NCBI GenBank assembly: GCA_043814985.1
Contig: JBDRJK010000001.1
Coordinates: 28,083 to 92,082 of the forward strand
DNA length: 64,000 nucleotides
Direction of reading: 5' to 3'
Source of the DNA: Candidatus Aenigmatarchaeota archaeon
GTDB lineage: Archaea; Aenigmatarchaeota; Aenigmatarchaeia; Aenigmatarchaeales; Aenigmatarchaeaceae
The notes under the pieces are model-generated. The model had not been told where the DNA came from, ran no database searches, and saw nothing but the letters and a program-made list of their open reading frames with translations. The translations under genes were made by a program, and so were the position numbers. Below, piece by piece: positions 19,601-46,131 of this stretch. Numbering within the stretch: the stretch's first letter is position 1; each line of letters opens with the position of its first letter.

Positions 19601-20743
19601 ATGATGATTGTCAAAGATATAATGTCAAAAAACGTGATTTGCCTGTCTCCTGAGGACACTGTATCAGAACTGATTTCCCTGGTGGAAAAAAATCATATAA
19701 GGGAAATCCCGATAGTGGAAAACAAGAAGCTGAAGGGCATTGTCTATTCCAAGGACATTGCAAGGAAGAATGTCACCAATCCCCAAAAGACAAAGATAGC
19801 CAAGGTTGTCAAGTCGCATCCTGCAACTGTCTCTCCCGACCAAGACATAAACGAGGCAGCTGAGCTGATATTGAAGAACGGGCTGATAGGCCTGCCTGTT
19901 GTGGAAAAGGGCAAGGTGGTCGGCATAATCTCCATGCACGACATAATAAACTTCTCCTCAAAGACAAAGCAGTTCAGGCAGACCAAAGCAGAGCAGATAA
20001 TGTCCATGCCAGAGACCATAACCAATGATGTTGACATCGGGAAGGCCAGATTGCTGATGAGGGAGAAGAACATATCAAGGCTCCCTGTTGTTGACAGCAA
20101 AAACAAGCTGTCAGGAGTTGTGACCATATTCGATCTGCTGAAGGCAGTAAAGCCAAGGGATAGAATGGGTTTCTACTCAAAAGCAGCTGAAAAGGAGACA
20201 ATGATGGGCATACCAGTGTCAACAATAATGGACAGGAATCCGGTAACTGCTGAAAGAAGCAATTCTTTGAACGAGATTGTAAGCCTGATAGACAAGAACA
20301 GGACAGACGGCATCATTGTTCTGGAGGGGGGACAACCAATCGGTGTTGTCACTGAAAAGGACCTGCTGGAAGTCTATGTTTCCAGTTTCAAGCAGAAGGG
20401 CATATTCTACCAGATAAGCGGTCTTAAGGACGAGGATGATTTCATACTAGCAACAGTTAACAGGATGATAAGGGACAGCCTGCAAAAACTAACAAAGATG
20501 ACCAAATCCGAATTCTTCTTCCTGCATGTCAAAAGGTACGATAAGAAGGGAAAGGTAAAGTACTCGATAAGGACCAGGCTGATGACTGAGAGGGGAATTT
20601 TCGTGAGCAAGTCGTACGCGTGGGACCTTAGGGAAGCTGTTGACATGTCTCTGGACAGGCTGGAAAAAATAATAATAAGAGGCAAGGAACACAAAAAGGA
20701 CAAAATAGAAGATATGTTAAGGTTTAAGAAGTTGCTAAGATAA
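19601..20743 (+). CDS. Four-CBS-domain protein with C-terminal HPF/RaiA-like domain (candidate archaeal ribosome hibernation factor)
   Basis: Four CBS repeats (VKDIMS, LPVV..GKVVGIIS, LPVV..KLSGVVT, VGVVTEKDLL). The C-terminal FLHVKRY...YSIRTRL...FVSKSYAWDLREAVDMSLDRLEKII resembles the HPF beta-beta-beta-alpha end. Confidence 0.8.
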   Translation: MMIVKDIMSKNVICLSPEDTVSELISLVEKNHIREIPIVENKKLKGIVYSKDIARKNVTNPQKTKIAKVVKSHPATVSPDQDINEAAELILKNGLIGLPVVEKGKVVGIISMHDIINFSSKTKQFRQTKAEQIMSMPETITNDVDIGKARLLMREKNISRLPVVDSKNKLSGVVTIFDLLKAVKPRDRMGFYSKAAEKETMMGIPVSTIMDRNPVTAERSNSLNEIVSLIDKNRTDGIIVLEGGQPIGVVTEKDLLEVYVSSFKQKGIFYQISGLKDEDDFILATVNRMIRDSLQKLTKMTKSEFFFLHVKRYDKKGKVKYSIRTRLMTERGIFVSKSYAWDLREAVDMSLDRLEKIIIRGKEHKKDKIEDMLRFKKLLR

Positions 20744-20763
20744 GATATATTCAAGGTGTTTTT

Positions 20764-20895
20764 ATTCAAGTTATCTGCGATCGTTGCAAAAAGTCAGTCA
20801 AGGAAGTAGGAAGGCTTACCAATGTCAAGTGGAAGGGCGTCAACCAGAAGATATGCAAGTTCTGCAGAAGGAACCTGAAGATAAGGGTCAGATAA
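20764..20895 (+). CDS. 43-aa CxxC-x22-CxxC zinc-finger microprotein with apparent ATT start
   Basis: (M)QVICDRCKKSVKEVGRLTNVKWKGVNQKICKFCRRNLKIRVR. GGTG lies 5 nt before ATT, and there is no in-frame ATG/GTG/TTG after the upstream stop at 20725. Confidence 0.7.
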   Translation: MQVICDRCKKSVKEVGRLTNVKWKGVNQKICKFCRRNLKIRVR

Positions 20896-20925: not shown

Positions 20926-21183
20926 ATGAACGCTTGTGCTGTTTCTGAAGAGAAATGGGATCAACTCGGAGAAAAGGTAAAAGAACTTGATCCTTCTTTT
21001 AATCCCTGTAATTTTAATGGTCCATGTTATGTTCTGCGTGTACCTGAAGATAATCTTGAAAAATACAAGAACTTTCTTATAGAGGAAGCAAAAAAGCTGG
21101 GAATTGAAGATTCTATATCTATTAAATCTTCAGATGATTTTATGAGAAAGAGGCATTATCAAATCAAAGTGTCTATGAAATAA
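20926..21183 (+). CDS. Hypothetical protein
   Basis: 85-aa AT-rich ORF filling the gap; converges exactly on the rhomboid gene. Confidence 0.55.
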   Translation: MNACAVSEEKWDQLGEKVKELDPSFNPCNFNGPCYVLRVPEDNLEKYKNFLIEEAKKLGIEDSISIKSSDDFMRKRHYQIKVSMK

Positions 21184-44410: not shown

Positions 44411-45052
44411 TCATTCGACTTCTTTTAGAACAAGTTCCATTTCATCGAGCCTAACATACTTGAATCCTTTTGTTTTTTCCAAAATCTGGGGCAATGCCTC
44501 AATCATCTGATCTGGACGGCTACCTCTGTCTACCTTATGGTCACCATCATGCATAGTTATCACAGAACATTTAGCTATGTTTTTTGTATAATAACCCACT
44601 GTCGCTTCAACCCCCTTCAGCCTCCAGTCATAAGAATGGAAAGTTGAACCGACAATCTTTTTACCCTTCATACTCTTAAGACTAGGAAAGCTCTTCCAAT
44701 CGTTGTAAGGAGCCCTTATGAATATTATTTTCTCTCCTGTAATTGTTTCCACTGTTTCAAGGCCTTTTTCAATATCATCATTTTCCCTAGAATGGGAATA
44801 GCTATGACCTCCTATCAAATGACCTCTCTTCTGTATTTCCATAACAGTCTCAGGAAATAATACTGCATGCTTACCCAGAATGAAAAATGTTGCTTTTGCA
44901 TTATACATGTCCAAAATATCCAGAACCTTATCTGTTCTGGGGGGATTGGGACCATCATCAAATGTTAGAGCGACCTTGTTCTTACTTTGGTCCCCATTGA
45001 AATATACAATCTGTCTTTTTCCATATAACCATCTTATAAAATCTCTTATAAT
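44411..45052 (-). CDS. Polysaccharide deacetylase (NodB/CE4 family), start upstream of the tracked ORF, possibly ATT at 45052
   Basis: VALTFDDGP lies in frame upstream of the tracked 44914 start; HSYSH, IRAPY and MHDG motifs present. Confidence 0.88.
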   Translation of the reverse strand: MIRDFIRWLYGKRQIVYFNGDQSKNKVALTFDDGPNPPRTDKVLDILDMYNAKATFFILGKHAVLFPETVMEIQKRGHLIGGHSYSHSRENDDIEKGLETVETITGEKIIFIRAPYNDWKSFPSLKSMKGKKIVGSTFHSYDWRLKGVEATVGYYTKNIAKCSVITMHDGDHKVDRGSRPDQMIEALPQILEKTKGFKYVRLDEMELVLKEVE

Positions 45053-46131
45053 TAAATGTAATCAGTCTTGTGAAGATACTCACCGATTAGTATTGCACCA
45101 TCTGCTCCACCTATCCTGGTATTATGCGAACATGTTACAAAAGCTATTTCATCATGTACTTTCCTAACTCTACCAACAGACGTTATCATACCTTTACCTG
45201 CTTCTGCATCTATTTTAGGCTGCGGTCTGTAAGTCTCATAAATTCCTGAAGTTGGATCACCAAAAACAACTATTGGCCTTTCTGGTGCAGAGGGGAGTTT
45301 AAGCTTTTGAGGCATTCCAGTAAAATTCTTCAGAGCCTTCATGACATCGTCAACACTGCATTCCTCTCTGGTCTTCACAAAAACATTTTCCGTATGGCCG
45401 TCTTCAACAGGAACCCTATTGCAGGCAGGATATATTCTCATCTCAGCATCAACAATTCTCCCGTTTTCATAGCTTCCAAGTATTTTCTTTGTTTCCACAT
45501 CAACCTTTTCTTCTTCTCCTGGAATGAAAGGAATTACATTGGCTTCCGCAATAGTTCTGTATACGGAATTTTTTCTTACTCCCTCTTCTCCTGCTCCAGA
45601 CAATGCCTGCATTGAACCCATGTGCAGTTCTTTAATACCCCAATTGTCATAAATAGGCTTGAGCGGCAATACTAAAGTTCTTGTTGTACAGTTTGAAATT
45701 GTTGAAAGGCTTTCCCAGCCTCTTTTCTTTTTCTGCGTTCTTACAATCTCAGCATGCTCAGGATTGACATGAGGCAAAAGAATAGAAACATCAGAATCAA
45801 GTCTGAATGCTGAGGAAGTACTTATCATGTGTGTGTATTCTGCTATTTTTGGTTCTATCTTTCTGCCTACATCAGCTTCCAAACCAGAAAAGCACAAATC
45901 TATTTTATGATTAAATATGTCTTGAGTTGGATAAACTCTCATTTCCAAAATTTCCTCTGGTATATCTCCATATTCTCTACCCTTTATTGCTTCACCTAAC
46001 TTTTTTCCTGCAGACCTTTCAGAAGCATAGAGGCCTGCTATTTCGAACCATGGATGTTTGTACAAGGACTCTACAAACTGCTGGCCTATCACACCAGTTG
46101 CAGCAACTATTCCAACTCTGAGTTTATCCAT
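45052..46131 (-). CDS. asd: Aspartate-semialdehyde dehydrogenase (archaeal-type)
   Basis: GIVAATGVIG Rossmann motif, SNCTT (catalytic Cys), QALSGAG, NVIPFI.GEEEK, RVPVEDGH and HNTRIGGA. Confidence 0.9.
   Translation of the reverse strand: MDKLRVGIVAATGVIGQQFVESLYKHPWFEIAGLYASERSAGKKLGEAIKGREYGDIPEEILEMRVYPTQDIFNHKIDLCFSGLEADVGRKIEPKIAEYTHMISTSSAFRLDSDVSILLPHVNPEHAEIVRTQKKKRGWESLSTISNCTTRTLVLPLKPIYDNWGIKELHMGSMQALSGAGEEGVRKNSVYRTIAEANVIPFIPGEEEKVDVETKKILGSYENGRIVDAEMRIYPACNRVPVEDGHTENVFVKTREECSVDDVMKALKNFTGMPQKLKLPSAPERPIVVFGDPTSGIYETYRPQPKIDAEAGKGMITSVGRVRKVHDEIAFVTCSHNTRIGGADGAILIGEYLHKTDYI

What the first reader, a model, noticed from the sequence alone, without database searches (positions are those of the whole stretch)
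20755..20895. Zinc-finger microprotein that appears to initiate at ATT
The ORF encodes CDRC-x22-CKFC with codon usage like the housekeeping genes. It has no in-frame ATG/GTG/TTG, but GGTG-TTTTT-ATT has the same 5-nt spacing as GGTG-ATAAA-ATG of the thermosome. This suggests AUU initiation, which is rare in archaea, or a recent ATG-to-ATT mutation. The basic Zn-finger directly follows the candidate hibernation factor and could be a ribosome- or RNA-associated protein.
Basis: partly seen in the sequence, partly recalled or inferred. Interest (0 to 1): 0.6.

Follow-up and report, generated by a model that had tools for sequence, protein, structure and literature searches.

The report
AUU-started zinc microprotein gene behind hibA
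A tiny, uncultivated groundwater archaeon has a real, conserved 43-residue zinc-finger protein gene right after its ribosome-hibernation gene, and it has most likely started at the weak codons AUU or AUC instead of AUG across many genera, so gene finders miss it or give it a wrong start.

Summary
Window 20764..20895 (+) encodes a 43-aa, very basic (pI 10.7) protein with four invariant cysteines and no in-frame ATG, GTG or TTG. ATT lies 5 nt after AGGTG, the modal ribosome-binding-site spacing in this genome.

The genome is an Aenigmatarchaeota (DPANN) MAG. Orthologues occur in 98 of 371 genomes of the phylum. In the window's order, the codon aligned with this ATT is ATT (11 loci), ATC (6), ATG (9), GTG (1) or TTG (1). 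Every ATT/ATC start follows a ribosome-binding site. Two loci have a stop codon directly before ATC.

A well-supported clade of 10 genomes from at least 5 genera has only ATT or ATC. The gene there is under strong purifying selection (787 synonymous vs 96 non-synonymous differences). This excludes an assembly error, a recent mutation and a dead gene.

The upstream gene is a HibA-type ribosome hibernation factor (4 CBS domains plus an HPF domain), and this gene order is conserved across the order. The microprotein matches no known family: it is not L24e and not the aMBF1 zinc ribbon. A ribosome- or RNA-associated role is only inferred.

This scan has noted near-cognate starts before in Asgard archaea, but not this gene. 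I rate it a new member of a known kind, of moderate interest.

The parts
19601..20743 (+). hibA-type ribosome hibernation factor gene (380 aa; four CBS domains plus a C-terminal HPF/RaiA-like domain). It is the first cistron of the pair, and its stop TAA is at 20741-43.
   Evidence: Pfam gives CBS x4 at E 2.7e-53 and Ribosomal_S30AE at residues 288-364 with E 1.3e-3. A profile of 25 orthologues hits PDB 9sr9_H (392 aa, ribosome-bound entries) over the full length at E 1.9e-60. The architecture matches HibA as described in PMC13324472.
20754..20758 (+). Shine-Dalgarno element AGGTG, 5 nt upstream of the ATT.
   Evidence: It is complementary to the 16S 3' end GGAUCACCUCCU found at G000:C21. A 5-nt spacing is the modal GGTG-to-start distance in this genome. 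An SD of 4-7 nt lies 3-6 nt upstream in all 17 ATT/ATC orthologues.
20764..20766 (+). ATT, the inferred start codon (read as Met by the initiator tRNA).
   Evidence: It aligns without gaps with ATG, GTG or TTG of 11 orthologues in the order and with the M of all 41 database representatives whose sequences were read. There is no canonical codon in frame in the window.
20764..20895 (+). Coding sequence of the 43-aa basic C4 zinc-finger microprotein, stop TAA included.
   Evidence: Orthologues occur in 98 of 371 genomes of the phylum. C5, D6, C8, K13, G16, R17, L18, C31 and C34 are invariant. Synonymous vs non-synonymous differences are 787 vs 96 among the ten closest genomes. The AlphaFold2 model has pLDDT 86.
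20776..20787 (+). First zinc knuckle, C5-x2-C8.
   Evidence: Invariant in 27 of 27 orthologues.
20854..20865 (+). Second zinc knuckle, C31-x2-C34, at the start of the C-terminal helix.
   Evidence: Invariant in 27 of 27 orthologues. In the model, helix 32-42 follows the hairpin 18-31.

Best explanation
Window 20764..20895 is a genuine protein-coding gene and the second cistron behind hibA. It encodes a 43-residue, strongly basic protein that binds one metal ion (presumably zinc) through two CxxC knuckles, in a knuckle / beta-hairpin / knuckle-helix fold resembling a treble clef.

Translation starts at AUU. The AGGUG element 5 nt upstream pairs with the 3' end of 16S rRNA and places AUU in the P site. 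The initiator Met-tRNA then reads it with a third-position mismatch. This is near-cognate initiation directed by a Shine-Dalgarno element, as in bacterial infC.

Shown here:
- the gene is real and under purifying selection;
- it has no canonical start codon;
- the AUU/AUC codon sits at the orthologous start position, behind a Shine-Dalgarno element, across many genera.

Inferred:
- the weak start is kept by selection to hold the microprotein's output low, or to make it depend on initiation fidelity (aIF1) or on ribosomes arriving from hibA;
- the protein acts on RNA or the ribosome.
For: There is no in-frame ATG, GTG or TTG in the 55-codon open frame.

Start position. Across 28 orthologous loci of the order, the start-aligned codon is ATT in 11, ATC in 6, ATG in 9, GTG in 1 and TTG in 1, in a gap-free alignment. 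L010 and L023 have TAA directly before ATC, so nothing upstream can be coding. Seven of 19 AUH loci have no canonical in-frame codon at all. All 41 of the 44 database representatives that were read begin with M followed by three residues and the first Cys.

Ribosome-binding site. All 17 AUH loci of the order have an SD of 4-7 nt at 3-6 nt. It is longer than in the loci with canonical starts (mean 5.5 vs 4.4 nt). The 16S tail matches, and a 5-nt spacing is modal genome-wide.

Persistence. On the HibA tree a clade of 10 genomes (support 100/98), from at least 5 genera, is all AUH. By my own parsimony count on that tree, it holds at least 4 ATT/ATC interchanges and no change to A or G. At least 3 AUH/canonical switches are forced by well-supported branches.

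Selection. Within those ten AUH genomes there are 787 synonymous and 96 non-synonymous single-base codon differences. Third-position differences number 1017, against 304 and 212 at positions 1 and 2.

Other points. Within the genus, the residues upstream of the AUH codon are unrelated, and one locus has a stop 5 codons upstream. aIF1 is known to discriminate against AUU in vitro, so an AUU start is a plausible regulatory handle (PMC4705826). The start region has no stable RNA structure (z = +1.2).
Against: No expression or protein data exist: no RNA run holds the locus. Logan contigs of the exact strain leave 20744-20777 uncovered, so the ATT of this very strain is not independently re-read. 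A closely related strain does keep ATT.

In 10 of the 17 AUH loci of the order, the GTG inside GGTG is in frame three codons upstream. Public annotations use such codons, giving products of 46, 46, 47 and 54 aa. In those genomes a GTG or TTG start cannot be excluded.

One strain in a biofilm metagenome has GTT at the start position together with such an in-frame GTG.

The SD-length comparison and the codon counts are not phylogenetically independent. The function is unsupported by any homology: no Pfam or NCBIfam family above cut-off, no PDB sequence hit, and a best fold Z of 4.5.
Confidence: 0.8

Rival explanations
1. The AUU is used mainly by ribosomes that have just terminated at the hibA stop 20 nt upstream (termination-reinitiation coupling), not by free 30S subunits. 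The weak codon would then set a fixed low ratio of microprotein to HibA. This refines the best explanation and does not exclude it.
For: The gene lies -17 to +34 nt from the end of the upstream ORF in every locus of the order, and hibA is that upstream gene in 25 of 27 loci. No promoter-like spacing fits between hibA and the ATT (sequence).
Against: Outside the order the gene is not behind hibA, and two such loci (L084, L086) still start at ATC or ATA behind a GTGAT element. The strong stand-alone SD suggests direct 30S recruitment.
Confidence: 0.3
2. The real start is an upstream in-frame GTG or TTG (for example the GTG inside GGTG, three codons upstream). Under this reading the ATT/ATC is an ordinary internal Ile codon, and the window's copy, which lacks such a codon, is a start-less pseudogene.
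For: An in-frame GTG sits at codon -3 in 10 of the 17 AUH loci of the order. Public gene calls use these codons.
Against: The window, L003, L010, L021, L023, L084 and L086 have no canonical in-frame codon, and in L010 and L023 a stop separates the GTG from the ORF. The frame of the GTG changes within one genus through 1-nt indels. The residues in between are unconserved, and there is no SD in front of the GTG. The window's protein is 93-98% identical to its congeners, with mostly synonymous change. Orthologues with ATG all start at the AUH-aligned position.
Confidence: 0.08
3. The zinc finger is made as a C-terminal extension of HibA, by programmed frameshifting or stop-codon read-through.
For: The zinc-finger frame overlaps the last five hibA codons in the window.
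Against: The distance from the hibA stop to the AUH is 19, 20, 21, 22, 34, 16, 5 or 2 nt, so the frames have no fixed relation. In-frame stops lie between the two genes in L004, L010 and L023. Outside the order the gene stands apart from hibA.
Confidence: 0.02
4. Sequencing or assembly error, or a very recent ATG-to-ATT mutation private to this genome.
For: Exact-strain Logan contigs do not span 20744-20777.
Against: 17 independent assemblies carry ATT or ATC at this codon. A related strain's contig in two runs keeps ATT.
Confidence: 0.01

Closest known systems
Bacterial infC (IF3) and other genes with AUU starts behind a Shine-Dalgarno element (E. coli pcnB, ynfQ)
   Same: A conserved near-cognate AUU/AUC start codon behind a good Shine-Dalgarno element, on a translation-linked locus. 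The weak codon persists over long evolutionary time instead of reverting to AUG. In infC the AUU makes expression depend on the fidelity factor (PMC4705826).
   Different: This is an archaeon, where fidelity is enforced by aIF1/aIF2 and not by IF3. The product is not an initiation factor. aIF1 is encoded elsewhere (G000:C13). No autoregulation is shown, and the start codon flips between AUH and AUG/GUG/UUG among sister lineages.
Sporadic ATT starts reported in archaea (for example Asgard tubulin AtubA, PMC13394414), and near-cognate starts noted by this scan in Asgard genomes
   Same: ATT behind a plausible ribosome-binding site, where homology requires a start and gene callers truncate or miss the gene.
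   Different: Here the phylum is a different one (DPANN, Aenigmatarchaeota). The start is conserved on one gene family across at least 5 genera, and it is not a genome-wide habit: none of about 830 long ORFs shows an SD-preceded near-cognate start, and only two further candidates were seen.
HibA / AHA ribosome hibernation factors (PMC13324472, PMC13728122)
   Same: The upstream gene has the defining architecture of four CBS domains plus a C-terminal HPF/RaiA-like domain, and it matches the solved protein over its full length.
   Different: Those papers contain no mention of zinc, an operon or synteny (term search). The microprotein also occurs in genomes where no HibA C-terminal domain was found.
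Small treble-clef / TRASH-like zinc fingers (ClpX zinc-binding domain, eL24, archaeal zinc-finger microproteins such as HVO_2753)
   Same: Size, four Cys in two knuckles about 22 residues apart, and a hairpin-plus-helix topology. The best structural match is the ClpX zinc-binding domain at Z 4.5, rmsd 2.6 A over 39 residues. Weak Pfam TRASH hits reach E 1e-4 in 6 of 27 members.
   Different: No significant sequence or profile relation. The comparison with L24e gives 14% probability and is misaligned, and a separate L24e gene exists in relatives. There are no PDB sequence hits even at E 10.

Membership tests
Genes with a near-cognate (AUU/AUC) start behind a Shine-Dalgarno element, infC type | No canonical start codon available in frame | tested here: met
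   none in the 12 open codons upstream or before the first Cys in the window. The same holds in 6 other loci.
Genes with a near-cognate (AUU/AUC) start behind a Shine-Dalgarno element, infC type | The near-cognate codon occupies the position of the ATG in orthologues | tested here: met
   Gap-free alignment A1, codon tables, and the M-x3-C N-termini of the 41 database representatives that were read.
Genes with a near-cognate (AUU/AUC) start behind a Shine-Dalgarno element, infC type | A Shine-Dalgarno element at functional spacing | tested here: met
   AGGTG plus 5 nt in the window; 4-7 nt SDs at 3-6 nt in all 17 AUH loci; 16S tail; modal spacing.
Genes with a near-cognate (AUU/AUC) start behind a Shine-Dalgarno element, infC type | The weak codon is retained over evolutionary time | tested here: met
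   A clade of 10 genomes is all ATT or ATC, with at least 4 T/C interchanges (my parsimony count on the tree) and no reversion to ATG.
Genes with a near-cognate (AUU/AUC) start behind a Shine-Dalgarno element, infC type | Expression responds to the level of the initiation-fidelity factor (autoregulation) | not testable with these tools
   Needs reporter or in vitro initiation assays with and without aIF1.
HibA / AHA hibernation factor (upstream gene) | N-terminal module of four CBS domains plus a C-terminal HPF/RaiA-like domain, about 380-390 aa | tested here: met
   Pfam; PDB 9sr9_H over the full length at E 1.9e-60; description in PMC13324472.
Ribosomal protein eL24 (PF01246) | Profile match to L24e, and being the only L24e-like gene of the genome | tested here: not met
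   hhalign of A1 against the L24e of relatives gives 14% probability over 12 misaligned columns. A bona fide L24e is present in 36 of 41 relatives, including genomes that carry the microprotein.
aMBF1 N-terminal zinc ribbon (TIGR00270) | Homology to the aMBF1 zinc ribbon, or a split aMBF1 gene | tested here: not met
   8 of 27 members hit weakly (best E 5.6e-5, far below the 110-bit cut-off). A full-length aMBF1 is encoded at G000:C5. hhalign probability is 0.8%.
TIGR04104 cxxc_20_cxxc putative zinc finger | Score above the curated cut-off | tested here: not met
   16 of 27 members match, but the best E-value is only 0.007.
C4 zinc-finger protein (generic) | Four invariant Cys in two knuckles that come together in the fold | tested here: met
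   C5, C8, C31 and C34 are invariant. The model (pLDDT 86) has knuckle-hairpin-knuckle-helix topology. Metal content itself is not testable here.

The most novel reading that the evidence does not exclude
The AUU/AUC start may be a selected sensor. Because aIF1 rejects AUU, the microprotein would be made mainly when initiation fidelity or aIF1 occupancy drops, or only by ribosomes coming off hibA. Its synthesis would then be tied to the hibernation state. The basic zinc finger would itself be an undescribed ribosome-binding accessory of the HibA hibernation programme in Aenigmatarchaeota. That would make it an archaeal counterpart of infC-type start-codon control, attached to ribosome dormancy.
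Probability: 0.12. Interest if true: 0.8.

Novelty: new member of a known kind. Interest (0 to 1): 0.5.

Why it matters
It documents a near-cognate AUU/AUC start codon in Archaea that is conserved across a clade on a specific gene. Such starts are considered rare in Archaea and are ignored by standard gene callers. As a result the gene is unannotated in this genome and carries arbitrary N-terminal extensions in relatives.

It also gives a natural sequence context (strong GGUGAU Shine-Dalgarno element, 3-6 nt spacer, AUY) that could be used to test aIF1-dependent start-codon discrimination.

Finally, it flags an uncharacterised basic zinc-finger microprotein that is fixed next to the recently discovered HibA hibernation factor throughout one order of DPANN archaea. 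That makes it a candidate to check in ribosome preparations.

Tried and rejected
- L24e identity: rejected. PF01246 is missing from G000 itself but present in its congeners, so its absence there is probably an assembly gap.
- Split or paralogous aMBF1 zinc ribbon: rejected.
- Fold searches: Foldseek against the PDB gave nothing below E 0.4. VIA-align wide gave a best Z of 4.5 and only generic zinc fingers.
- PDB sequence search with the family profile: 0 hits at E 10.
- ESM Atlas: only unnamed small clusters, plus DUF2197 and TP_0214 at 0.91. These are leads only.
- Complex prediction of HibA with the microprotein: no verdict (score 0.00, controls not run). It is not evidence either way. Two earlier tries found the machine busy.
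- Sequencing runs: no RNA holder is listed. Only Logan contigs could be laid, and the exact-strain contigs leave 20744-20777 uncovered.
- Loss of aIF1 as a cause of relaxed start selection: rejected, since SUI1 is present in 39 of 41 relatives including G000.
- RNA structure hiding the Shine-Dalgarno element or the start: none (z = +1.2).
- Genome-wide habit of near-cognate starts: not supported for long genes (the start-less long ORFs look like non-coding shadow frames).
A2 worked.
- Deacetylase candidate (window 45052): no orthologues in 20 relatives, so it could not be tested.

Full report
**What is in the window.** The + frame is open from 20728 to the TAA at 20893-95 and holds no ATG, GTG or TTG. 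AGGTG lies at 20754-58, then TTTTT, then ATT at 20764-66. From ATT the product is 43 aa, with C5-x2-C8, 22 residues, then C31-x2-C34. It has 14 Lys/Arg against 2 Asp/Glu, and a pI of 10.7. The 16S rRNA of this genome ends in GGATCACCTCCT. GGTG is enriched 3.4-fold upstream of long ORFs, with a sharp preference for 5 or 7 nt of spacing. The motif is therefore a true Shine-Dalgarno element at the modal distance.

**Organism and family.** The window belongs to a 0.81-Mb, 21-contig genome (91% complete). Record titles of near relatives name Candidatus Aenigmatarchaeota, from groundwater and similar MAGs. A search of 41 relatives found the microprotein in 27. A profile search of 371 genomes of the phylum found it in 98, all in the same class. 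A profile search of 1.84 billion representative proteins gave only 44 hits. All 41 whose sequences were read are small proteins in which a Met is followed by three residues and the first Cys. Nine columns are invariant among 27 orthologues: C5, D6, C8, K13, G16, R17, L18, C31 and C34.

**The start codon.** I extracted the codon aligned with the window's ATT from every locus. In the window's order (28 loci) it is ATT in 11, ATC in 6, ATG in 9, GTG in 1 and TTG in 1, in an alignment without gaps.
- In L010 and L023 a TAA directly precedes the ATC.
- In L004 a stop lies five codons upstream.
- Within the genus the 'residues' upstream are unrelated, while the 43 codons downstream are 93-98% identical.
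- Outside the order (59 loci) the start is ATG or GTG almost everywhere. The exceptions are L084 (ATC) and L086 (ATA), both behind GTGAT. Two more loci have an adjacent canonical codon.

All 17 AUH loci of the order have a 4-7-nt match to the anti-SD complement, 3-6 nt upstream. This is longer than in loci with canonical starts (mean 5.5 vs 4.4 nt; Mann-Whitney p = 0.008). The p-value is indicative only, because relatives are not independent.

**Persistence.** On a maximum-likelihood tree of the adjacent HibA protein, a clade of ten genomes (support 100/98) from at least five genera is entirely AUH. By my own parsimony count on that tree, it needs at least four ATT/ATC interchanges and shows no change to ATG or ATA. 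Elsewhere, sister pairs differ (ATT/ATG, ATT/TTG). The label needs about 6 changes in all, of which at least 3 are forced by well-supported branches. Among exactly those ten AUH genomes, single-base codon differences are 787 synonymous against 96 non-synonymous, and third positions carry 1017 differences against 304 and 212. The gene has therefore been translated and constrained throughout the time it has lacked an ATG. This excludes an assembly error, a private recent mutation and a pseudogene. It also suggests, without proving it, that the weak codon is itself maintained.

**Caveats on the start.** In 10 of the 17 AUH loci the GTG inside GGTG happens to be in frame three codons upstream. Public annotations of four relatives use such upstream GTG/TTG codons, giving 46-, 46-, 47- and 54-aa 'hypothetical proteins' with unrelated N-terminal extensions.
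- That GTG has no Shine-Dalgarno element of its own.
- Its frame changes within one genus by 1-nt indels.
- It is separated from the ORF by a stop in L010 and L023.
- It is absent in frame in 7 of 19 AUH loci, including the window.

I therefore treat it as a by-product of a 6-nt spacing, though it cannot be excluded as a co-used start in some genomes.

Read evidence is limited. Only Logan contigs exist. The exact-strain contigs stop at 20743 and resume at 20778. A variant-strain contig identical to the G001 sequence keeps ATT in two groundwater runs. A biofilm-metagenome variant has GTT there, plus the in-frame GTG. No RNA run holds the locus.

**Is this a habit of the genome?** Mostly not.
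- Among about 830 non-overlapping long ORFs, none shows an SD-preceded near-cognate start. The few start-less long frames look non-coding.
- Among short intergenic ORFs behind GGTG, one further convincing case appeared. It is a desulforedoxin-domain gene at G000:C21:101405 that has ATA behind GGTGAT where the same-genus genome G002 has ATG.
The frame indeed lacks a canonical start before its conserved VALTFDDGP motif. It has no orthologues in 20 relatives, so it could not be tested.
- aIF1 is present in 39 of 41 relatives, so loss of the fidelity factor is not the cause.

**Context and function.** The upstream gene (19601..20743) has four CBS domains and a C-terminal HPF/RaiA-like domain. A profile of 25 orthologues matches the ribosome-bound 392-aa chain 9sr9_H over its full length at E 1.9e-60. 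This is the architecture of the newly described HibA/AHA hibernation factors (PMC13324472, PMC13728122).

The order endA - hibA - microprotein - rhomboid (the last on the opposite strand) is kept in nearly all loci of the order. The microprotein starts -17 to +34 nt from the end of the upstream ORF.

Outside the order the gene is elsewhere: behind an M24 peptidase of methionine-aminopeptidase size in several loci of family f15, and near diphthamide synthase, a class II aminoacyl-tRNA synthetase, TBP, or SAM synthetase in others. The HibA C-terminal domain is found in 261 of 371 genomes against 98 for the microprotein. Some genomes have the microprotein without a detectable HibA. It is therefore not an obligate HibA partner.

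**Fold and homology.** The AlphaFold2 model (pLDDT 86) is a knuckle, a short helix, a beta-hairpin, and a second knuckle leading into a helix. Fold searches return only generic zinc fingers: ClpX zinc-binding domain at Z 4.5, LIM domains, and small ribosomal zinc proteins at Z about 4. No Pfam or NCBIfam family reaches its cut-off. L24e and the aMBF1 zinc ribbon were tested and rejected. A role on RNA or the ribosome is thus an inference from charge, size and translation-linked neighbours. I give it roughly one chance in three.

**Mechanism proposed.** The SD:anti-SD duplex places AUU in the P site. Met-tRNAi pairs with a third-position mismatch. aIF1 is known to destabilise AUU complexes in vitro (PMC4705826), so output should be low and sensitive to aIF1 occupancy. 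Ribosomes terminating at hibA 20 nt upstream may contribute by reinitiation. The start region is unstructured. The steps shown are the anatomy and its conservation. The steps inferred are the use of AUU itself, its regulatory meaning and the function of the protein.

**Verdict.** The phenomenon belongs to a known kind: near-cognate starts behind a Shine-Dalgarno element, as in infC, with sporadic ATT starts reported in Asgard archaea (PMC13394414). Earlier notes of this scan also describe such starts in Asgard genomes. It is a well-documented, clade-wide archaeal example on a previously unannotated microprotein gene coupled to hibA.

Noticed in passing
L116:1001-1234 (G000:C21:101405-101638, outside the window): A 78-aa protein with a desulforedoxin / Desulfoferrodoxin_N domain (PF06397, E 4e-17) has ATA behind GGTGAT at the position where the same-genus genome G002 (94% identical) has ATG. 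Its first canonical in-frame codon lies after the first CxxC. It is a second likely near-cognate start in this genome, but not a conserved one.
   Followed up: partly
window 44411-45061 (-): A polysaccharide-deacetylase-like frame has no ATG, GTG or TTG before its VALTFDDGP motif. An ATT overlaps the asd stop (TAATT), and there is no Shine-Dalgarno element nearby. No orthologue was found in 20 relatives, so the start could not be checked by comparison.
   Followed up: partly
window 20764 in run X3 (biofilm metagenome): A strain variant carries GTT instead of ATT at the start position, together with an in-frame GTG three codons upstream. This may be a lineage that has moved its start.
   Followed up: no
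L010:1489-1503 and L023:1489-1503: The in-frame GTG inside the Shine-Dalgarno element is followed by one codon and a TAA that abuts the ATC start (GTG-AGT-TAA-ATC and GTG-AAT-TAA-ATC). This forms a two-codon mini-frame ending exactly at the start codon. Whether it matters is unknown.
   Followed up: no
G000, whole genome: Ribosomal protein L24e (PF01246) is not found in this 91%-complete genome, although 36 of 41 relatives, congeners among them, have it. This is probably an assembly gap.
   Followed up: partly
L138:2669-3529, L141:2638-3507, L144:1596-2465: In another family of the class (f15), the microprotein gene sits directly downstream of an M24 peptidase of methionine-aminopeptidase size. 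Other neighbours include diphthamide synthase and a class II aminoacyl-tRNA synthetase. These are again translation-linked surroundings.
   Followed up: partly
window 20926-21183 (+): The 85-aa ORF just downstream has no Pfam match. In these loci it is found only in G000 and, at 51% identity, in G002. In the other relatives the rhomboid gene follows the microprotein directly, so this ORF is an accessory insertion.
   Followed up: no
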